A stretch of 64,000 nt of DNA from a virus (Duplodnaviria > Caudoviricetes), in IMG/VR virus record IMGVR_UViG_3300035522_000179, positions 160,001 through 224,000 of that record, one strand, 5' to 3'. Below are positions 4,162 through 64,000 of this stretch, in pieces. The position numbers were made by a program, and so were the translations under genes. Within the stretch, counting starts at the first letter, position 1, and the number at the start of each line of letters is the position of its first letter. The notes below the pieces were generated by a model, which was not told where the DNA came from, ran no database searches, and saw only the letters and a program-made list of their open reading frames with translations.

Positions 4162-5169
4162 TTACACTACATGGAGTGCGGTTTTGTAGGACTTGCCTTT
4201 TGCAGTCCATTCTTTATCCGGATTTTTTAATTTTACGATATTACTCTGATACAAAGCAGTTGCTTTCGCCATTCCATTTCCAAAGACAGGTGTCTTTCCG
4301 GAATCTGCTTCAATGCTTCCAGTATAATATCCCATGGTTTTCATCAGTCTCTCAAGAGCAGTAACCGACTTGTGACTCTTATTCTTGGAAGTGCTGATGG
4401 TGACTGTTTTTTCCAGTACCTCTTTTGCAGTTCCATTGGGAAGTCCAAGAAGACTTGCCATCTCTTTGTAGAAACCAGTCGATACATAATCCGTAGCAGT
4501 TTCTTTCTCTTCAGTTGTCTTTATAGCAACGGTAGCAGTCTCCAAAGCTTTTGCTTCGATATCGACATACCACTCATTCAAATCTACCACACCGGAAATT
4601 CCGTTTACGACACCAGAAGAAGACCACTGCCATCCATAAATCGTTTTGTTAAGACTAGGACGCTTACTAGCGTCAGGATCTTTCTCATTATCTACTTTTG
4701 CACTTGAGGGGTACTTTGCAACCCAGAACGGGTAGTCCAGTTCACTCTCATACTGCTTCAAGTAAGAGTTGTAGAAGGAAATATAGGTGTAAACACCAAA
4801 TTCCAACCCAGCCGCTTTAATGACTTTTCCATACTCTTTGATTCCCTCAACCAACGTATGACCAAGGGTTCTAAGGGACTGATCCTCAATATCAATCCAT
4901 ACCATTGTCTTTCTTCCGTTCAAAATCTTAACAACTGCTTCTGCATCGGTTTTGAACTTCGCAACAGTGGTAGCATACGAATAGTTGTAAACACCTTGAA
5001 TAGGAACTCCCTGATTCGTGAATCCCTCCCAGTGAGTTTCAAACAACTTATCCGGGTTTAAGTCTTTACGAATAACCTTCAAGATAACAAAATCCACGTT
5101 ATCTTTTGCAGCCGCTTCGTAATCTTTTACTACGTTATAACAGCTTAAGTCAATACCTTTGTAGGTCAT
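4162..5169 (-). CDS. GH25 muramidase endolysin with C-terminal cell-wall-binding region
   Basis: KGIDLS, WIDIE, GVYT, WVAKY, WQWSS.G.V.GI...VDLN are GH25 motifs; PG-binding-like MGYYTG...FG..MAKA; directly downstream of a holin-like gene. Confidence 0.9.
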   Translation of the reverse strand: MTYKGIDLSCYNVVKDYEAAAKDNVDFVILKVIRKDLNPDKLFETHWEGFTNQGVPIQGVYNYSYATTVAKFKTDAEAVVKILNGRKTMVWIDIEDQSLRTLGHTLVEGIKEYGKVIKAAGLEFGVYTYISFYNSYLKQYESELDYPFWVAKYPSSAKVDNEKDPDASKRPSLNKTIYGWQWSSSGVVNGISGVVDLNEWYVDIEAKALETATVAIKTTEEKETATDYVSTGFYKEMASLLGLPNGTAKEVLEKTVTISTSKNKSHKSVTALERLMKTMGYYTGSIEADSGKTPVFGNGMAKATALYQSNIVKLKNPDKEWTAKGKSYKTALHVV

Positions 5170-5173
5170 AATC

Positions 5174-5560
5174 TTACTCCTCCGTAGTCTCTTCTGTCTC
5201 TGTACTCGTTACGGAATTATTAATCTTTCCATCATCCAGAAGATCCTTTACTGCAACAAACCACTTCTGAATAATAACTCGCAAGGTATCCTCACTTACA
5301 AAGACCTGAACATACTTGGGAAGAAGGGAATAGGCGGATGTAACAACCCAATCCATCTTCTTCACACCTGCTCCAGACTCAGTGAAAGACTTCTCTGCCT
5401 GAAGGAATAATTTATAAACATCCTCTCTGATGTCATTGATGGATTTGTTTCTAAGATACAGATACCCCAGAAGCAAAACAATCACAATCGCACCAACGAT
5501 GACGCCTACAACGGTAACATCTGTGTTTGTAGTAACGGTATCAATGATTGACTGAATCAT
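5174..5560 (-). CDS. holin-like membrane protein
   Basis: Single N-terminal TM segment, AEK....GAG..K motif typical of Firmicute phage holins, adjacent to the endolysin. Confidence 0.7.
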   Translation of the reverse strand: MIQSIIDTVTTNTDVTVVGVIVGAIVIVLLLGYLYLRNKSINDIREDVYKLFLQAEKSFTESGAGVKKMDWVVTSAYSLLPKYVQVFVSEDTLRVIIQKWFVAVKDLLDDGKINNSVTSTETEETTEE

Positions 5561-5696
5561 AATGATTACCTCCTTATAAAAATAAATTTATCCCTCTTGG
5601 GATTATGTAATTGTCTGAGATTTATCTTCTTAGATTTGATAGATTTGACCCCGAAAAACAATCTACTTAATATAGAAGAAAGGTGGAAACTAAGAG

Positions 5697-58068: not shown

Positions 58069-60657
58069 ATGAAAATATGTGAACTTGAATTAACAAATTT
58101 TGCTGGTATCTATGCTACCATGCACAGAACTTTTGTAAGACTGAATTTAAGAAAGTCAAAAAATAAGATTTGTTTGATTACTGGTCCGAATGGACACGGT
58201 AAGACAGTGTTACTGTCACAGTTAAACCCTTTCGCCACACTCGGAACTGTGGATGAAAGGGATTCTCTTCAACTTATATTGGAAGGGAAAGAGGGACATA
58301 AAAAAATTATCATTCAAGATGAAGAAAACGAATATGAAATCGACCATTTCTATTCACCAAATAAATCCACACATTCTGTGAAGTCTTACATTAAGAAAAA
58401 TGGAGACGAATTAAATCCAAATGGAAATGTCACTTCCTTTAAGGAAATTATCAAGAATGAACTGGATATGGAACAAGAGTATATGAAACTTGTTCGTTTA
58501 GGAAATAATGTAACCAATCTCATTGAGCTTAAGAGTTCTGAGAGAAAGACCTTTATGTCAAAGATCTTAGAAGATGCGGATATCTATCTTAAGTATTATA
58601 AGAAGATTAATATGGAAGTAGGAACCTTAAAGACATTAATCTCTCATACAACGGATAAAATCAATAAGCTTAATGTAGATGATGTGGATGGAGTAAAAGA
58701 GAAACTAAAGAAAGAAGAAAAAGAATTAAAAGAACTGGACGAATCCATTTTGAAATTAAACGATACGATATCGGTAATTGAATTTCAGATTGGGTCGATT
58801 CCCCCAGTAGACATGGAGAAACTTCTGGATTCTGAAGTGAAACTAAAGAAGATGGAAAAGAAGCTAAAAGAGAAATCTTCAATATCTGTAGAATCTCTTA
58901 AGAATGACGAAGTGGAATTGTCTTTACGAATTGCTACAAACACAGAGAGATTACGGAGTTTAAAATCTTCTTTGGATAACTCTCTGGATACCATGGATTC
59001 CACAAGGTCTTCGATTAATATCTTGAGTCAACAGCTGAGTCGAATTGAAGATTCTACCGATATTATTGGTTTAACGAATATCATCGTTTCCTTAGAAAAG
59101 ACTATTAAGGAAGAAGAGGAACGTTTCAAACCTTATGGAGAAATTGGATATACTAGAAAAGATATTGAAAACTTCTTAGCATTCATTAAAGAAAAGCAAG
59201 AGGTTTTAAATACAACTTATGAGTTTGGTTCGGAAGTTGTAAAGAAAGTCTGTGATCTTTTGATGAAAGATAAGAACGTGATTTCTTATATTGAAGATCA
59301 TTTGAGGAAAGCAACTGAGGATGAAGAGATTGACAATGGAAAGTCGATTATTAAAAGAGTCTTTTCCAGATATCCGAAGTTTTCGATTCCTTCCAAATGT
59401 ACAAGTTGTGAAGCAATGGAAATCATCAACGACTTTCAGATGATTGCGAACATTGAAAAAGATAGTGAGTTAAAGTCAAAAGAGTTCTATACTTATATGA
59501 ATATGGCTTATAACAACATCAAAGGAGTTTTACTGTCTTTTTCGGAAAACAAAGAGTTGTTTTTAAAACTTCCTGAGTATATCAGGAAGGAATATAAAAC
59601 AGATGTCCTTCTTAAAAAGATTGGGAAAACCGAAATGGTTTATGATCAAAAGTTAATCTTTGATGAGTTATCGTTTATCACAGATTACGAGTTGTATTTA
59701 TCTCATCAAGAAGAATTAGAAAATAAAGAAACTGAATTAAAAACAATGGCTCATGAATCTTCTTTGAAATCTTTGAAAAAACAGATTAAAGAGCTGTCCC
59801 TGAAGTTAGAGCAAACAACGAGCAATTATTCCAAAGAGACAGAACTTTTCGCTGAAATTTCACGCAGTTTAGAGAAAGATAAAGATGAATTAAGTGAATT
59901 ACATACATTGATAGAGGCTCTGGAAAATAAAAACGAATTGGAATCTTTTGTAAAAGAAAGCAATGATTCTTTGAAAAAGAAAGATCAGTATAAAGAAGAG
60001 AAGTTTACCAAAACAAAACTTCGAGATTCCATGTCACTTGAAAAAAATAAAATCACAAGAGATATTTCCTTAATTCAATACACTTTAAAACAACTGGAAG
60101 AATTTAAAAAAGAATTAAAGGTTTATCAGAAATACTATGATGAATGGATTTTGATGAAGGAATCTCTTTCCGCGAATAAGGGAATTCCTTTGATCTTCAT
60201 TGACCTTTATTTAAAGAAATCTTTGAATGTGGTGAATGCATTACTGGATAGAATATATAATGGAAGAGTATATGTAGAGAAGTTTGATATTGCGGCAGAT
60301 TCGTTTACAATTCCTTTTGTAAAAGAGGGAACGAATGTACCGGATATTCGGTATGCTTCTCAGGGAGAGAAATCCTTCTTTTCCATTAGTTTATCTTTTG
60401 CAATCTCTTTTCAAAGTATGAGTAAATATAACATCATGTTATTGGATGAGTTAGACTCGGTGTTGGATGAGTCCAATCGATCGAACTTTATTCAGATTAT
60501 TGAAGAATTGATTGATATGATAAATGCGGATCAAATCTTTATTATCTCTCATAACAACATGTTTTCCATGTATCCAGTGGATGTGGTTTCTGTTGTAAAT
60601 GAATTACCGAAAGATAATAATCTTGCAAACTATATTGAAATCGAGTATGAGCAATAA
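58069..60657 (+). CDS. sbcC: SbcC/Rad50-like SMC ATPase
   Basis: GPNGHGKT, long coiled coils around a CTSC hook, signature ASQGEK, LLDELD..LD, IISHN; start ATG 58069. Confidence 0.92.
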   Translation: MKICELELTNFAGIYATMHRTFVRLNLRKSKNKICLITGPNGHGKTVLLSQLNPFATLGTVDERDSLQLILEGKEGHKKIIIQDEENEYEIDHFYSPNKSTHSVKSYIKKNGDELNPNGNVTSFKEIIKNELDMEQEYMKLVRLGNNVTNLIELKSSERKTFMSKILEDADIYLKYYKKINMEVGTLKTLISHTTDKINKLNVDDVDGVKEKLKKEEKELKELDESILKLNDTISVIEFQIGSIPPVDMEKLLDSEVKLKKMEKKLKEKSSISVESLKNDEVELSLRIATNTERLRSLKSSLDNSLDTMDSTRSSINILSQQLSRIEDSTDIIGLTNIIVSLEKTIKEEEERFKPYGEIGYTRKDIENFLAFIKEKQEVLNTTYEFGSEVVKKVCDLLMKDKNVISYIEDHLRKATEDEEIDNGKSIIKRVFSRYPKFSIPSKCTSCEAMEIINDFQMIANIEKDSELKSKEFYTYMNMAYNNIKGVLLSFSENKELFLKLPEYIRKEYKTDVLLKKIGKTEMVYDQKLIFDELSFITDYELYLSHQEELENKETELKTMAHESSLKSLKKQIKELSLKLEQTTSNYSKETELFAEISRSLEKDKDELSELHTLIEALENKNELESFVKESNDSLKKKDQYKEEKFTKTKLRDSMSLEKNKITRDISLIQYTLKQLEEFKKELKVYQKYYDEWILMKESLSANKGIPLIFIDLYLKKSLNVVNALLDRIYNGRVYVEKFDIAADSFTIPFVKEGTNVPDIRYASQGEKSFFSISLSFAISFQSMSKYNIMLLDELDSVLDESNRSNFIQIIEELIDMINADQIFIISHNNMFSMYPVDVVSVVNELPKDNNLANYIEIEYEQ

Positions 60658-60825
60658 AAAGGCTCCTAGAGAACTGAACGTTCTAAGGTTCTCTAGGAGT
60701 CTAGTAATGCGTCAGGCTTCACGAAAGGAGCGGTATTTTCAATAAATCATAAATTGCAAATTGCGAGTCTGTACATTTATTAAGAAGTTTACCATAGGCA
60801 AAAGACTTTTTCTACCCAACGCATT
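60655..60825 (-). ncRNA. candidate late structured small RNA 1 (rod-like, anti-SD bubble)
   Basis: AACA-AAATGT-TA promoter at 60836-60825; 5' AAUGCGUUGGG pairs with CCUGACGCAUU; own terminator hairpin at about 60660-60702 with a U-tract only on the minus strand; no SD-led ORF. Confidence 0.65.
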
Positions 60826-60841
60826 AACATTTTGTTTTTGA

Positions 60842-60883
60842 AAAATCCCCTGTATGAGAAATCAATCTCATACAGGGGATTTT
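60842..60883 (-). terminator. terminator of the NlpC/P60 gene, just upstream of the sRNA1 promoter
   Basis: AAAATCCCCTGTATGAGA/TCTCATACAGGGGATTTT. Confidence 0.85.
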
Positions 60884-60885
60884 AA

Positions 60886-61833
60886 TTACTTATTGGTTGA
60901 TGCGAACATCGCACGAAGTGTTGCACTTCCAGCGTATCCATCAGCAGCCAAACCTCTGGTATCATTCTGATATTTCGAAACATATGCTTTTGTGATGTCG
61001 CTATAATTGGTAGACACCTTCGTGGAATTGATAATTCCTTTCATGTCATATCTCATGACAGCATACAGATAAACATGAACGATATAAGTAATATCTGCAA
61101 AAGCAGTAGTGTTTTTCTTCATTGCAGAATAAGCAGGGCAAGCTGCAATTGTTTTGGTACCATACTTTCCATCAATCGAAAGCTTCGTGTTGGTCTTATA
61201 CTCTTTTACAAACAACGTCTGAAGAACCTTTACAGTTGCTTTCAAAGTGTTATCTCCGTAACTTCCATCTACTTTAATCTCTTCTTTTCCAAGTTTCGTA
61301 TTCACCCAAGTCTGATAATTGGTTACGATAACATCGGACGAAGTGGTATCCGTAGCTTTTTCTGTTTCGGTATACTCTACAAAAGAGGGAATCCCATAAT
61401 AATACCATCTACTGATCTTGAGATCCTCTTTGTAAACATTGAGTTTAGAGTCTCTCATCTCAACGGTACATCCATTTCCAAGGTATGCACCCATATGGGT
61501 CAGGTTTTTATTGAAAACCATACAAACCTTGTTTTTCGGAATGGCACCAATCAGACCCTTCTCTGTGCAATCGTTATAAAAGCCAGAGGCAGATCTGTCT
61601 ACACCAGAAAGAGGATAGAAGGCACCACTACAGTCTGCACCAATCTTTCCTTTTCCTTCTGCGAGTTTCGCATTGTAATAATCTTTGTTGTAAGTTGCTG
61701 ATCCAAATTGCTTGTACAATTTATCCGTAAGGGTTTTTGTGATGGTCTCACCGTTTGCTCCCCACAGATAGATTGCTCCATTGTTGTAAAGATCTTCGAA
61801 ATACTTTACGAACTTTTCACTACTTACACTCAT
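60886..61833 (-). CDS. NlpC/P60 peptidoglycan peptidase with PG-binding repeats
   Basis: YLWGA, ADCSG, THMGAY; repeats VDGSYG, IDGKYG, ADGYAG..T. Confidence 0.85.
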   Translation of the reverse strand: MSVSSEKFVKYFEDLYNNGAIYLWGANGETITKTLTDKLYKQFGSATYNKDYYNAKLAEGKGKIGADCSGAFYPLSGVDRSASGFYNDCTEKGLIGAIPKNKVCMVFNKNLTHMGAYLGNGCTVEMRDSKLNVYKEDLKISRWYYYGIPSFVEYTETEKATDTTSSDVIVTNYQTWVNTKLGKEEIKVDGSYGDNTLKATVKVLQTLFVKEYKTNTKLSIDGKYGTKTIAACPAYSAMKKNTTAFADITYIVHVYLYAVMRYDMKGIINSTKVSTNYSDITKAYVSKYQNDTRGLAADGYAGSATLRAMFASTNK

Positions 61834-62006
61834 GATAAATCTTCCTTTCTTATAATTGGTTTCTTCTTTATGGGATTTTTAACCACCCCTTGGTTACTTA
61901 AATAATAAGGTTTCCTTCTTCCACATATTTTTGCAGATTCAGGAACGTTTTCTTCTTTTGACATTTTTGTTAAATCATTATCTGAAAATTCTCTGTACTT
62001 CACCAT
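61830..62006 (-). CDS. 58-aa basic protein (not in the ORF track)
   Basis: MVKYREFSD...RKEDLS; ATGA-coupled to the NlpC gene. Confidence 0.5.
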   Translation of the reverse strand: MVKYREFSDNDLTKMSKEENVPESAKICGRRKPYYLSNQGVVKNPIKKKPIIRKEDLS

Positions 62007-62121
62007 GTCGTTTTACCATCCTTAACTATTTAATATTTACGAAGCAATTATTACAAAAAAGACTGACTTAGGATACTGTCCAATGCAAAACATATTTTTA
62101 ATAGAGAAATGAGGTGAAAAT

Positions 62122-62841
62122 ATGAATTTATCAAAACTCATGACACGTATTAAAACAGAACTTGGATTATATGCTATCGCTCTTCCGATAGATGATTTAG
62201 ATGGTACCATTCGAACTACAATCAAAGAAATGACACTTCGTGTGTATTCTCAGTATTTCCCACAGTATGAAATTGTGAGAAAGTCTGCTTCGGAACTTGA
62301 CAAAGCAGAACGAAATCTAGAGTATACCGATTTGTATTTGGATGTACCAGATGGAACGGAGATCTTGTCCATTGAAGATATCTATTATGATGCAAGTGAT
62401 ATATCTGGAATTGGATATTACGGAGCGGGTATGCCACTCTTTGAGCCAAATATGATTCAGGATTTGCTTACAACGAATATTGGAGCAAACATGTCAAACA
62501 TGATGTTTCCAAAACCTACTTGGGAATTCTTTTATCCCAGAAAGGTTCGCGTATATAACCTATATGGTGGAAGTATTTTCATTAAGTATGCAAAGCTTCA
62601 TGATTTATCTTTATCGTCCATTCCTTTTTCACAAGAAGAGACATTCACTCAACTTGCAATCTTGGATGTAAAGAAAGTTCTTTACAATGTCGTGAAGCAT
62701 TACAATGAGTTGGAAACTGCTCATGGTAGAATTACTCTTAAGATTGATGATTGGGCGGAAGCCGCCAATGAAAGACGAGATATTATCAACCAGTGGGATG
62801 ATAATTATCATCTGGAAAGAAAAACGATTTATTATGCATAA
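62122..62841 (+). CDS. probable neck / head-tail adaptor protein
   Basis: TLRVYSQYFP, F..P..V, LAILDVK..LY, I.L.IDDW; AACA-N6-TA at 62089. Confidence 0.55.
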   Translation: MNLSKLMTRIKTELGLYAIALPIDDLDGTIRTTIKEMTLRVYSQYFPQYEIVRKSASELDKAERNLEYTDLYLDVPDGTEILSIEDIYYDASDISGIGYYGAGMPLFEPNMIQDLLTTNIGANMSNMMFPKPTWEFFYPRKVRVYNLYGGSIFIKYAKLHDLSLSSIPFSQEETFTQLAILDVKKVLYNVVKHYNELETAHGRITLKIDDWAEAANERRDIINQWDDNYHLERKTIYYA

Positions 62842-62882
62842 TAAAAGAACTCATGCAATTTTTCGTTGCATGAGTTCTTTTA

Positions 62883-63329
62883 TTATTTTTCATATAGTTT
62901 TTCTGCAATGGTATTTACTACATTTACCAAATTGATATGAATCGTTCCATAAAATACACTTGATTCATTATTCGCAGCCAGTAATGTGAATAAGATATAA
63001 CTTTCATCCAAAGTATATTTCATCCATAAGAGAAATCGTTTCATTTCATCTTTTAGTATATGAAACTTCTCAAGTACTTTTTCATCATGAAATACTTTTA
63101 CAATGATCGCCGTCCAAACAACTTCAAATTTTGAGAAATCAAAGATTGGACGAATCCTCACTTGCTTCGTTTCTTTATCGATCTGCTCTTTGTATAAATG
63201 GGTAAAATTCTCATCATTTACAAATAACGATGGATGATCCATTACTACCTGGCAGTATTCTTCTGTGACAATATAATTGAATAAAGATTTGAATCGTTCT
63301 AAATCATATAAATCTTTATAGGTTGACAT
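62883..63329 (-). CDS. hypothetical protein
   Basis: SD AAGGAG; convergent terminator at 62844-62881. Confidence 0.7.
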   Translation of the reverse strand: MSTYKDLYDLERFKSLFNYIVTEEYCQVVMDHPSLFVNDENFTHLYKEQIDKETKQVRIRPIFDFSKFEVVWTAIIVKVFHDEKVLEKFHILKDEMKRFLLWMKYTLDESYILFTLLAANNESSVFYGTIHINLVNVVNTIAEKLYEK

Positions 63330-63405
63330 AATTAAAACTCCTTTATTTTGTTATTATACCATTAACGTAATAGTTAAATATAAAATGAGAAAGGAGACAT
63401 GAATC

Positions 63406-63702
63406 ATGGAAGATATGGAAATTTATAGGGGGATGTTCGCTAATACAAAATTTATGGTAGATACCTACACAAATCTTCTTACTATAATAGAACTCCTCTT
63501 AGAAAAAGGAATTTTGACCAATGAGGAACTTCTCACAATGAAAGAAAAAATGAAACAAAGACCGGAAATCGCATCCATGCAAAAGGTATTGGATGAGCAG
63601 GAAGAACTATTAAGTGGTCTGGAAAAAGATCCGGATGATGATCCTGAAGCATTAGATGATGCATTAGAGGAGTATTTAAATAATATAGTAGAGGAGGAAT
63701 AA
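63406..63702 (+). CDS. small acidic protein with SHOCT-like LLEKGILTNEE motif
   Basis: SD GAAAGGAG. Confidence 0.7.
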   Translation: MEDMEIYRGMFANTKFMVDTYTNLLTIIELLLEKGILTNEELLTMKEKMKQRPEIASMQKVLDEQEELLSGLEKDPDDDPEALDDALEEYLNNIVEEE

Positions 63703-63703
63703 T

Positions 63704-63859
63704 ATGGAAGAAAACCATGCAAAGAAAGCACACCATATTAAAACAATCAAACGATCTGAGATTAGTTCTTTGAAATCAGAATACATCAATACCTTAATTG
63801 ATCACAGTGATTCCACCTTACGATATATTAGAAAAAGAAAAGAGCAAAGGAATAAATAA
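63704..63859 (+). CDS. 51-aa basic protein (not in the ORF track)
   Basis: SD GAGGAGG; MEENHAKKAHHIK... Confidence 0.55.
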   Translation: MEENHAKKAHHIKTIKRSEISSLKSEYINTLIDHSDSTLRYIRKRKEQRNK

Positions 63860-63947
63860 TAACTATGGATCCATCGAGAATTTAATCTCGATGGATCCAT
63901 GTTGTTGAGGAAGGTTACATAGAATACTCTAAGCAAATTTAATTGCT
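63855..63947 (-). ncRNA. candidate late small RNA 2 (hairpin, anti-SD linker, terminator)
   Basis: AACA-ATTATT-TA at 63958-63947; 5' hairpin AGCAA-UUAAAU-UUGCU; linker containing AACCUUCCUC; 15-bp hairpin at 63865-63900. Confidence 0.5.
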
Positions 63948-64000
63948 AAATAATTGTTATTCAAAAATATAAAATAAGAACTAGAGTAGAAATGAATCTA

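What the first reader, a model, noticed from the sequence alone, without database searches (positions are those of the whole stretch)
63855..63958. Second orphan late unit with an anti-SD linker, suggesting a small-RNA family
Seen: perfect AACA-ATTATT-TA on the minus strand with no gene behind it. The ~90-nt transcript starts exactly with hairpin AGCAA-UUAAAU-UUGCU, has a single-stranded linker containing AACCUUCCUC (complement of GAGGAAGGUU) and ends in a 15-bp hairpin with the same UUAAAU loop. The layout matches sRNA1 3 kb away, and what may be half of an upstream terminator starts at the window edge. Inference: a set of late sRNAs that occlude ribosome-binding sites; the twin loops could bind a protein partner.
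Basis: partly seen in the sequence, partly recalled or inferred. Interest (0 to 1): 0.75.

Follow-up and report, generated by a model that had tools for sequence, protein, structure and literature searches.

The report
Orphan late small-RNA gene behind capsid gene
Just after the major capsid gene of an uncultured 250-kb gut phage related to Bacillus phage AR9 lies a gene-less promoter-to-terminator unit, kept in related phages, that probably makes a stable RNA of about 95 bases; the idea that this RNA blocks ribosome-binding sites did not pass its own test.

Summary
The window is part of a 249,613-bp AR9-like jumbo phage.

On the minus strand the order is:
- the major head gene;
- its two-way terminator;
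- a late promoter, AACAATTATTTA, with +1 at A63947;
- a 5-bp hairpin at the 5' end;
- a 31-nt open linker;
- a 15-bp hairpin whose U-rich tail exists on this strand only.

No minus-strand gene follows, because two plus-strand genes converge on the unit.

The promoter scores 13.2 on a matrix for which all 47 genome sites scoring 12 or more are intergenic. Shuffled intergenic DNA gives 1.9 such sites, against 41 real ones.

Ten contexts in related phages (major head protein 69-83% identical) keep the same architecture. Eight also keep GUAUUC-N-ACCUUC in the linker. The unit keeps its architecture when separated from either neighbouring gene. The downstream membrane-protein gene has its own conserved promoter motif.

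My best reading is an autonomous late non-coding RNA (about 0.5). There is no expression evidence.

The twin loops are not conserved. There is no sequence family shared with "sRNA1".

This scan reported similar orphan late units in another AR9-like gut phage (e1-5467142).

The parts
63976..64000 (-). Intrinsic terminator of the major head (capsid) gene. It is a 15-bp hairpin spanning 63976-64011 that runs past the window end. It is followed by a T-rich run on both strands, so it can terminate in both directions.
   Evidence: The upstream gene (window coordinates 64018-65769, minus strand) matches phrog_20655, major head protein, at E 1.8e-38.
63947..63958 (-). AR9-type late promoter AACA-N6-TA (AACAATTATTTA). 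The predicted start is A63947.
   Evidence: The matrix score is 13.2, rank 42, and all 47 sites scoring 12 or more are intergenic. Shuffled intergenic DNA gives 1.9 hits against 41 real ones. The identical 13-mer AACAATTATTTAG is found in relatives L004, L047, L007, L077, L078 and L079, with one base changed in L080 and L081. The AR9 consensus is AACA-(6N)-TA/G, with the last base as the start site (PMC5312081).
63932..63947 (-). 5'-terminal stem-loop AGCAA-UUAAAU-UUGCU, starting at +1.
   Evidence: Every relative has a stem-loop within 1-5 nt of +1: GCAG/CUGC, GCAG/CUGU, or GCAA/UUGC in this phage.
63901..63931 (-). Linker predicted to be largely unpaired. It carries the two conserved blocks GUAUUC (63927-63922) and AACCUUC (63916-63910).
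   Evidence: Folds are. The composite GTATYY-N2-8-ACCTTC occurs only 3 times in about 500 kb (both strands) of this genome. It sits at the same distance from +1 in own, A, B, L078, L079, L080 and L081.
63865..63900 (-). 15-bp perfect hairpin with loop UUAAAU: the terminator of the unit.
   Evidence: The terminator scan accepts it on the minus strand only. The homologous hairpin in 7 relatives keeps 10 pairs, 6 of them through compensatory changes.
63851..63864 (-). U-rich tail AGUUAUUAUUUAUU, the probable 3' end region. It overlaps the stop codon of the converging 51-aa ORF.
63704..63859 (+). Converging 51-aa ORF with a strong SD (GAGGAGG). It has no orthologue in relatives A or B.
63406..63702 (+). 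Converging 98-aa ORF with an SD. It is specific to this lineage.
   Evidence: Only one homologue (90% identity) was found among 5.8 billion proteins.

Best explanation
This is an autonomous gene for a small non-coding RNA of about 93-97 nt, expressed late in infection.

Inferred mechanism:
1. The phage's own non-virion multisubunit RNA polymerase starts at A63947 from the AR9-type late promoter.
2. The first 16 nt fold into a 5'-terminal stem-loop. In Firmicutes such a structure protects an RNA from 5'-end-dependent decay (general knowledge).
3. A roughly 30-nt single-stranded segment carries the conserved blocks GUAUUC and AACCUUC. This is the working surface, most likely pairing with another RNA, or else binding a protein.
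4. Transcription stops at the 15-bp hairpin and its U-rich tail.

The unit is a module that normally sits between the major head gene and a small membrane-protein (weakly holin-like) gene. In this phage that gene has moved 58 kb away and the unit stayed behind.

Shown: the sequence anatomy, the quality of the promoter match, the polarity of the terminator, and conservation of position, of architecture and of the two blocks.

Inferred: that it is transcribed, where its ends lie, that it is stable, and what it acts on. The target is unknown.

Sub-odds: it is transcribed as a discrete RNA, about 0.65. It acts in trans through the linker, about 0.3-0.4.
For: Promoter:
- AACA-N6-TW is the late motif of this genome. 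95 of 425 copies are intergenic, and most lie 20-80 nt before start codons.
- 23 orthologous genes keep the motif in all three complete genomes.
- The candidate scores 13.2. No coding site reaches 12, and the shuffle expectation is 1.9 against 41 real.
- The genome encodes two RNAP beta-like genes, as AR9 does.
- The AR9 late consensus is the same motif (PMC5312081).

Terminator:
- It is accepted on the minus strand only.
- The homologous hairpin shows 6 of 10 pairs with compensatory changes.

Conservation, in genomes whose proteins are only about 52-54% identical at the median:
- The same order (head-gene terminator, promoter, 5' hairpin, linker, hairpin, U-run) is found in L004, L047, L007, L077, L078, L080, L081, L009 and L204.
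- It is also found in L079, 1 kb further away.
- The composite linker motif occurs 3 times per genome, so finding it at that spot by chance has odds of about 1e-4.

Autonomy:
- The membrane-protein gene has its own conserved (G/A)ACA-N6-TAA motif after the hairpin in every relative. It also has it in this phage, where no unit precedes it.
- The unit stays with the head gene in own, L009 and L204, but with the membrane-protein gene in L079.

There is no conserved ORF on either strand.
Against: - There is no expression evidence. Two gut metatranscriptome runs held only fragments of the head gene.
- The base after +1 is G, where about 90% of late promoters have A. The same site scores only 8.5 and 9.4 on the matrices of relatives A and B.
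- A covariance model built from 7 relatives recovers this phage's copy only weakly: 19.2 bits, E 0.039 in 10 kb, no better than two ordinary terminators. Homology therefore rests on position, the promoter and two short blocks.
- The linker blocks are lost or altered in L009, L077 and L204.
- No conserved complementary target was found in phage translation start regions or in the head-gene leader.
- The unit is missing after the head gene in five relatives: L046, L048, L082, L083 and L205.
Confidence: 0.5

Rival explanations
1. It is the relic of a cis-acting 5' leader or attenuator. On this reading, in the relatives the strong promoter, linker and terminator form a premature-termination leader that doses or times the small membrane-protein (weakly holin-like) gene just downstream. 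In this phage that gene moved away, and the leader is a leftover that may still be transcribed but has no target.
For: - In 8 of the 11 phages with the unit, the membrane-protein gene follows within 60-130 nt on the same strand.
- That gene's own motif is the weak GACA variant, with matrix scores of 0.7-6.3.
- In type A the linker CCUUCAUUAUUUU is complementary to the gene's ribosome-binding region AAAAUUAAUGAAGG. This is my own reading of the sequence.
- Short RNAs derived from 5'UTRs by premature termination are documented in the jumbo phage 201phi2-1 (PMC11512511).
Against: - This phage's copy is intact: 13/13 promoter bases, the 5' hairpin, both linker blocks and a perfect 15-bp stem. This is despite saturating divergence of the flanking intergenic DNA.
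- L009 and L204 also keep the architecture without that gene.
- The gene keeps its own promoter-like motif in all lineages, including this phage, where it has no other late motif upstream.
- Cis complementarity is strong only in type A.
Confidence: 0.2
2. There is no separate transcript. The region is only a stack of terminators between converging genes, with a back-up terminator for the heavily transcribed head gene. The promoter-like 12-mer is non-functional.
For: - The unit lies between converging genes, where hairpins are expected.
- The base after +1 is off-consensus.
- The covariance model cannot tell this phage's copy from ordinary terminators.
- There are no expression data.
Against: - The 13-mer is identical or differs by one base in eight relatives. 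By comparison, only 2 of 23 orthologous late promoters are fully identical across the three genomes.
- About 0.004 chance matrix hits are expected in a stretch this size, from the figures.
- The conserved linker blocks have no role in a terminator stack.
- The hairpin lacks a U-tract on the plus strand. It is therefore not the natural terminator of the 51-aa ORF, which can use the two-way head-gene terminator 75 nt further on.
Confidence: 0.1
3. One reading: a late small RNA whose CU-rich linker acts as a general anti-Shine-Dalgarno sequence and occludes ribosome-binding sites, with the two UUAAAU loops binding a protein.
For: - ACCUUC can pair with GAAGGU, and with GGAGGU through one G-U pair.
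- It is exact in 8 of the 11 phages with the unit.
- A neighbouring orphan unit (sRNA1) and its orthologues carry CUCCUUUC or CACCUCC tracts.
Against: - Pairing of the linker with a consensus SD is no better than for its own shuffles (41% are as good) or for control intergenic 32-mers (21% are as good). None of the nine linkers tested reaches 5%.
- GAAGGT is a rare SD in these phages, with 4-8 genes per genome.
- The core is changed to ACCAUC or ACCAUU in two lineages and is absent in one.
- The loops are not conserved.
Confidence: 0.1
4. A cis-antisense role specific to this phage. Plus-strand transcripts of the 98-aa and 51-aa operon that pass the hairpin (which has no U-tract on that strand) would end at the head-gene terminator. 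They would then be fully complementary to the small RNA, which could trigger their decay.
For: Geometry only. The hairpin is not terminator-like on the plus strand, whereas the head-gene terminator is. In this phage, the 51-aa gene's start region ranks 4th of 243 in predicted pairing with the linker.
Against: - This cannot be the conserved function, because the relatives have no converging gene there.
- The 51-aa protein is hydrophilic, unlike the membrane toxins of type I toxin-antitoxin pairs that have this geometry.
Confidence: 0.1

Closest known systems
ORF-less start-to-terminator units ('sRNAs') of the jumbo Pseudomonas phages 201phi2-1 and phiKZ, found by ONT-cappable-seq (PMC11512511)
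   Same: Both are short units transcribed by the phage's own multisubunit RNA polymerase, with a terminator soon after the start site. In 201phi2-1, 3 are intergenic and 8 come from premature termination in 5'UTRs. One is conserved by position in front of an orthologous structural gene across genera. Their function is unknown.
   Different: Those RNAs were observed as transcripts; this one is only predicted. They come from a different phage lineage and host phylum, and use a different promoter type (TATG-type late promoters in phiKZ). No sequence relation was tested or is expected.
Late transcription of Bacillus phage AR9: promoter AACA-(6N)-TA/G, including internal and antisense late promoters (PMC5312081)
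   Same: The promoter motif and start position are identical. The genome has the same size class and encodes two RNAP beta-like genes. The major head proteins are distantly related (23% identity).
   Different: In AR9 and the Staphylococcus jumbo phages, the head gene is followed within about 70-85 nt by the next gene, so there is no such unit there. The passages I searched in that paper hold no mention of 'noncoding' or 'small RNA', and no stand-alone non-coding late unit appears in them.
Small RNA made by early termination of the Shiga-toxin phage late transcript (PMC7547250; seen only as title and abstract)
   Same: A phage late promoter followed at once by a terminator yields a short RNA that acts as a regulator.
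   Different: That is a lambdoid prophage using host RNA polymerase and Q antitermination. Its target and function have been shown experimentally.
Firmicute small RNAs with C/U-rich seeds that mask ribosome-binding sites, such as RsaE/RoxS (recalled from general knowledge, not tested here)
   Same: The layout is a promoter, an exposed pyrimidine-rich segment and an intrinsic terminator.
   Different: Those seeds are C-rich motifs conserved across genera, with validated targets. Here the pairing with SD sequences is no better than chance. Rfam gave no match.

Membership tests
AR9-type late promoter (recognised by the non-virion RNA polymerase) | AACA at -11 to -8, with T at -1 and A/G at +1 | tested here: met
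   AACAATTATTTA lies at 63958-63947. The consensus is taken from PMC5312081.
AR9-type late promoter (recognised by the non-virion RNA polymerase) | The motif is used genome-wide in front of late or structural genes of the same phage | tested here: met
   54 training sites lie 15-100 nt before start codons. All 47 sites scoring 12 or more are intergenic. 23 orthologous promoters are kept in three genomes.
AR9-type late promoter (recognised by the non-virion RNA polymerase) | Extended consensus of this phage: A-rich at -14 to -12, and A after +1 | tested here: inconclusive
   The candidate has T at -12 and G after +1. Both are minority bases. The score is still 13.2 in its own genome, but 8.5 and 9.4 in relatives A and B.
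AR9-type late promoter (recognised by the non-virion RNA polymerase) | The phage encodes split multisubunit RNA polymerases | tested here: met
   There are two Rpb2_6 (beta-like) matches above the cut-off. The Rpb1_2 profile found nothing, as can happen with such diverged subunits.
AR9-type late promoter (recognised by the non-virion RNA polymerase) | A mapped primary 5' end at the predicted +1; uracil-containing template DNA | not testable with these tools
   No raw-read RNA data cover the site. DNA base modification cannot be read from the sequence.
Intrinsic (factor-independent) terminator | A G+C-containing stem, a loop of 3-8 nt, and a U-rich tract directly after the stem on the transcribed strand | tested here: met
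   15 pairs (7 of them G-C), a 6-nt loop and the tail AGTTATTATT, on the minus strand only. The stem is kept by compensatory changes in relatives.
Trans-acting base-pairing small RNA | Own promoter and terminator, no ORF, and a conserved single-stranded segment | tested here: met
   There is no conserved ORF on either strand.
Trans-acting base-pairing small RNA | A conserved complementary target | tested here: inconclusive
   No phage start region stands out across the three genomes. The best combined z-sum is -4.15 among 143 orthologue triples, which is within expectation. The head-gene leader pairs no better than with shuffled seeds. The host is unknown, so host targets were not tested.
Trans-acting base-pairing small RNA | The RNA is detected | not testable with these tools
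   Only assembled contigs from two metatranscriptomes were available, and they do not cover the unit.
Anti-Shine-Dalgarno (ribosome-binding-site masking) RNA | Complementarity to the SD consensus beyond what composition gives | tested here: not met
   The energy is -8.3 kcal/mol. 41% of shuffles and 21% of control intergenic 32-mers are as good or better. None of the nine linkers tested falls below 5%.
5'UTR-derived short RNA by premature termination (as in 201phi2-1) | A start site followed by a terminator, upstream of a same-strand coding gene | tested here: not met
   No same-strand gene follows in this phage. The feature is met by sequence in 8 relatives.
Type I toxin-antitoxin pair (converging, 3'-overlapping antisense RNA) | A small hydrophobic membrane toxin encoded on the converging strand | tested here: not met
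   The converging 51-aa ORF at 63704-63859 is highly charged and has no hydrophobic segment. This is my own reading of the DNA shown; no tool translated it.
Any Rfam family | A match at or near a family's gathering score | tested here: not met
   The best overlapping match is 22.3 bits, against a gathering score of 45, to a trypanosomatid snoRNA. That is a chance match.

The most novel reading that the evidence does not exclude
A positionally fixed riboregulator family, driven by the phage's own polymerase and specific to one clade of AR9-like gut and rumen jumbo phages. Its conserved open segment GUAUUC...ACCUUCAU would recognise a host or phage RNA, or a protein, to control a late step of infection. 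One example would be lysis timing together with the weakly holin-like gene that normally follows it.
Probability: 0.25. Interest if true: 0.6.

Novelty: new member of a known kind. Interest (0 to 1): 0.4.

Why it matters
Non-coding RNAs of jumbo phages that carry their own RNA polymerases are only starting to be catalogued, and none has a known function. This unit is a compact candidate, delimited by comparison between phages, in the AR9 branch that infects Gram-positive hosts.

It has a clear predicted 5' end, a clear predicted 3' end and a short conserved segment to mutate. It also shows that the AR9 late-promoter motif can be used to find gene-less transcription units in uncultured relatives.

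If it is only a spare terminator stack or a dead leader, it has no wider importance.

Tried and rejected
- **Rfam**, at a permissive threshold, on 60000-64000 and on the second promoter copy (genome 17.5-19.5 kb): chance matches only. No tRNA or tmRNA was found.
- **Near-identical phage records** in GenBank: none.
- **Public RNA runs**: two gut metatranscriptomes held contigs of the head gene only, and none on the unit. A 95-nt RNA would not be assembled from such libraries, so this says nothing either way.
- **Covariance model** from 7 relatives. It found the L079 copy (E 1.4e-7). This phage's copy appeared only with filters off, at a score shared by ordinary terminators.
- **MAFFT alignment** of all nine units misaligned own and L009, so no formal pair count was made for hairpin 1.
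- **Target searches** gave nothing conserved. I tried duplex energies against all start regions of three genomes with orthologue mapping, the head-gene leader, and exact complementary words genome-wide.
- **Wider pattern scans** of viral contigs (GTATT-N-ACCTTCATT) and of prokaryote genomes (promoter plus ACCTTC) returned only chance matches. The first viral scan returned only the relatives already known.
- **Micro-ORFs.** On the RNA strand the only one is AUG-UAA. On the opposite strand, A and B start MKVL-type 12-14 codon frames, but this phage has AGG in place of ATG and no SD precedes them. Rejected. An SD-like GAAGGT followed by a conserved ATA on the opposite strand was noted, but the peptides are not conserved and no promoter faces that way.
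- **Host sigma-A-type promoter** (TTGAAT-17-TAAATT): 8 of 12 matches, below the scan threshold, and the -35 part is not conserved. Rejected.
- **Type I toxin-antitoxin**: rejected, because the converging protein is hydrophilic.

Full report
**What the DNA is.** The window is bases 160001-224000 of a single 249,613-bp IMG/VR virus record. The record has 36% G+C and is rated complete by CheckV. GenBank holds no near-identical phage record. The gene just beyond the window end (window coordinates 64018-65769, minus strand) is the major head protein, matching phrog_20655 at E 1.8e-38. Its nearest annotated relatives are the head proteins of the Staphylococcus jumbo phages and of Bacillus phages AR9 and PBS1, at only 20-25% identity. 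The genome has two RNA polymerase beta-like genes, as expected for a phage of the AR9/phiKZ kind with virion and non-virion polymerases.

**The observation.** Reading the minus strand from the head gene, the order is as follows.
- The stop codon of the head gene.
- A 15-bp hairpin at 64011-63976, followed by a T-run. This is the head-gene terminator, and it looks like a terminator on both strands.
- AACAATTATTTA at 63958-63947.
- An RNA that would begin at A63947 with the stem-loop AGCAA-UUAAAU-UUGCU.
- A 31-nt linker containing GUAUUC and AACCUUCCUC.
- A perfect 15-bp hairpin at 63900-63865, with loop UUAAAU.
- The tail AGUUAUUAUUUAUU.

The predicted 97-nt RNA folds as described, with the linker largely open. 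Its energy is -33 kcal/mol and its z-score against dinucleotide shuffles is -6.8, mostly because of the long hairpin. Beyond the hairpin, the minus strand runs antisense into two plus-strand ORFs with strong ribosome-binding sites (63704-63859, 51 aa; 63406-63702, 98 aa). 'No gene behind it' is therefore correct.

**Is the promoter real?** AACA-(6N)-TA/G, with the last base as the start site, is the published late-promoter consensus of AR9 (PMC5312081).
- In this genome 95 of 425 copies of AACA-N6-TW are intergenic, although only 11% of the genome is intergenic. Most lie 20-80 nt before a start codon.
- The extended consensus is A-rich before AACA, T-rich in the spacer, then TAA.
- A matrix trained on promoters that lie in front of genes finds 47 sites scoring 12 or more in the whole genome, and all are intergenic. 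The candidate was not in the training set. It scores 13.2, rank 42.
- Shuffled intergenic DNA of the same composition gives 1.9 sites at this score, against 41 real ones. That is roughly 0.004 expected in a stretch the size of this one.
- Its weak points are T at -12 and G after +1, where about nine in ten promoters have A.

**Polarity of the hairpin.** The consensus scan accepts the 63865-63900 hairpin as a terminator on the minus strand only. On the plus strand it is followed by GTTGTTGAGG. The converging plus-strand operon can use the two-way head-gene terminator 75 nt further on.

**Relatives.** Searches with the head protein gave a family of uncultured phages from gut and rumen samples.

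*Divergence.* Two complete relatives, A (275.5 kb) and B (278.8 kb), share 143 reciprocal best-hit genes with this phage. The median identity is only 52-54%. Neutral intergenic DNA should therefore be randomised, and indeed the three head-gene terminators have unrelated sequences.

*Where the unit recurs.* Directly after the head-gene terminator the same unit recurs in L004 and L047 (type A), L007 (type B), L077, L078, L080 and L081. Diverged forms are found in L009 and L204.

*What is kept.*
- The promoter 13-mer AACAATTATTTAG is identical in six relatives and differs by one base in two. For comparison, only 2 of 23 orthologous late promoters are fully identical across the three genomes.
- Every copy has a stem-loop within five bases of +1: GCAG/CUGC, GCAG/CUGU, or GCAA/UUGC here.
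- Every copy has an open linker and a strong hairpin followed by a U-rich run.
- In seven relatives the long hairpin aligns, and 6 of its 10 pairs show compensatory double changes.
- The linker keeps GUAUUC and ACCUUC(AU) at matching distances from +1 in eight sequence types. The composite GTATYY-N2-8-ACCTTC occurs only three times in the roughly 500 kb of both strands of this genome. Its presence at that spot by chance is of order 1e-4.

*A caveat.* A covariance model built from the seven relatives recovers this phage's copy with exactly the predicted ends (63947-63852). The score is only 19.2 bits, however, no better than two ordinary terminators. The body of this copy is diverged, so homology rests on position, the promoter and the two blocks.

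**Leader or independent gene?** In eight relatives a 121-137-aa protein with one N-terminal membrane segment follows on the same strand. It matches phrog_15303 and has a weak holin match at E about 8e-4. This raises the possibility that the unit is that gene's leader. Three findings favour independence.
- That gene carries its own conserved (G/A)ACA-N6-TAA motif between the hairpin and its ribosome-binding site. This holds in every relative and in this phage, where the gene lies at window 5174-5560 with no unit and no other late motif upstream. In L009 the motif is a canonical AACA.
- The unit stays with the head gene when the membrane-protein gene is elsewhere (this phage, L009, L204). It stays with the membrane-protein gene when a 1-kb insertion separates it from the head gene (L079, model E 1.4e-7).
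- This phage's copy is fully intact despite the old divergence.

The two plus-strand genes that now face the unit are specific to this lineage.

- The linker's predicted pairing with a consensus Shine-Dalgarno sequence is -8.3 kcal/mol. 41% of its own shuffles and 21% of 4,308 control intergenic 32-mers do as well or better. None of the nine linkers tested reaches 5%.
- GAAGGT, the exact complement of the conserved hexamer, is a rare ribosome-binding sequence in these phages.
- The hexamer is ACCAUC in L009 and ACCAUU in L077, and is absent in L204.
- The UUAAAU loop of hairpin 1 is unique to this phage. That of hairpin 2 recurs only in L047.
- The unit shares no sequence with 'sRNA1' (promoter at 60836, minus strand) or with the other orphan late units of this genome. 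They form a class, not a family.
- No conserved target emerged among phage start regions, in the head-gene leader, or from exact complementary words.

**Expression.** The only public runs that hold this DNA are two gut metatranscriptomes, available as assembled contigs. They cover parts of the head gene and nothing of the unit. This is uninformative for a 95-nt RNA.

**Comparison with what is known.**
- Rfam has no matching family.
- The closest documented things are the ORF-less start-to-terminator units of the jumbo phages 201phi2-1 and phiKZ. Eleven were reported in 201phi2-1, eight of them from premature termination in 5'UTRs, and one is conserved by position before a tail gene (PMC11512511).
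- AR9 itself has late promoters that drive internal and antisense transcripts. In AR9 and in the Staphylococcus jumbo phage Machias the head gene is followed within about 70-85 nt by the next gene, so the unit is confined to the new gut clade.
- An earlier follow-up in this scan (e1-5467142) reported several conserved gene-less late units in another AR9-like gut phage, and also found the anti-SD idea weak. My results agree with it independently.

**Verdict.** The most likely reading is an autonomous gene for a late, stable, non-coding RNA of about 95 nt, whose conserved open segment is the functional part (0.5). Rivals:
- a relic leader or attenuator of the membrane-protein gene (0.2);
- a mere terminator stack (0.1);
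- a general anti-SD occluder (0.1);
- an antisense role specific to this phage, against the converging operon (0.1).

It is a new member of a known kind. Its interest is moderate, and it is limited by the lack of any expression or target evidence.

Noticed in passing
whole genome; in the window e.g. 13335 (-), 60739 (-); beyond the window end at window-equivalent 65861 (-), in the head-gene leader: The word AAAATACC, usually preceded by TG (TGAAAATACC), is strongly enriched in intergenic DNA: 17 of 31 copies, where 3.5 are expected. It often lies 10-60 nt before start codons. It also occurs inside four other orphan late units (sRNA1 and genome positions 58923, 89465, 18818), but not in the unit studied here. 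It may be a second promoter class or a shared RNA motif.
   Followed up: partly
window 60655-60836 (-), with orthologous intergenic regions in relative A (126273-126616) and relative B (113413-113687): The 'sRNA1' orphan late unit is conserved by position, between the endolysin-like and SbcC-like genes, in both complete relatives. Shared blocks include TAATTAGAAAGCTGCA and tracts identical to the 16S 3' tail (CACCUCC in A and B, CUCCUUUC in this phage). Its promoter scores 16.4.
   Followed up: partly
genome 18380-18830 (-), outside the window (locus L206): The only other copy of ATAACAATTATTTAGC in the genome is followed by a short hairpin whose loop holds GAACCUU, then a T-run. After that comes about 450 nt of ORF-free, G+C-richer sequence before the next gene. 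There are no Rfam, tRNA or tmRNA matches. This promoter copy is not present in relatives A or B.
   Followed up: partly
genome 44494 (+), 58923 (+), 89465 (+), outside the window: Three further late promoters (matrix scores 10.4-14.6) are each followed by a strong terminator hairpin before any SD-led ORF. The genome therefore has at least five orphan late units.
   Followed up: partly
window 5561-5620 (-); L004 about 4940-4960; L007 about 4965-4985; L009 6745-6760 (-): The small membrane-protein (weakly holin-like) gene keeps an orthologous promoter motif that reads GACA-N6-TAA in most lineages and AACA-N6-TAA in L009. GACA variants with a positive matrix score are themselves enriched in intergenic DNA (7 of 20, 8 of 14 and 9 of 14 in the three genomes). 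This suggests a weaker promoter subclass.
   Followed up: partly
locus L204, 3330-3460: A more distant relative (head protein 69% identical) has the same architecture after its head gene: late promoter, 5' hairpin, linker, terminator. The sequence is unrelated, and GUAUUC now forms the 3' arm of the first hairpin. More promoter-like motifs follow in a 470-nt gene-free stretch.
   Followed up: no
window 63406-63859 (+): The two converging genes have no orthologue in relatives A or B. Only one homologue (90% identity, on a 2.6-kb contig) exists among 5.8 billion proteins. They mark a rearrangement that joined the head-gene module to the 62122-63329 module in this phage.
   Followed up: partly
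window-equivalent 64043-65884 (locus L003 2043-3884), beyond the window end: Contigs from two gut metatranscriptomic runs of different studies match the major head gene at 95-100% identity. This phage, or a very close relative, is therefore present in those animal-gut samples. The data do not prove transcription.
   Followed up: no
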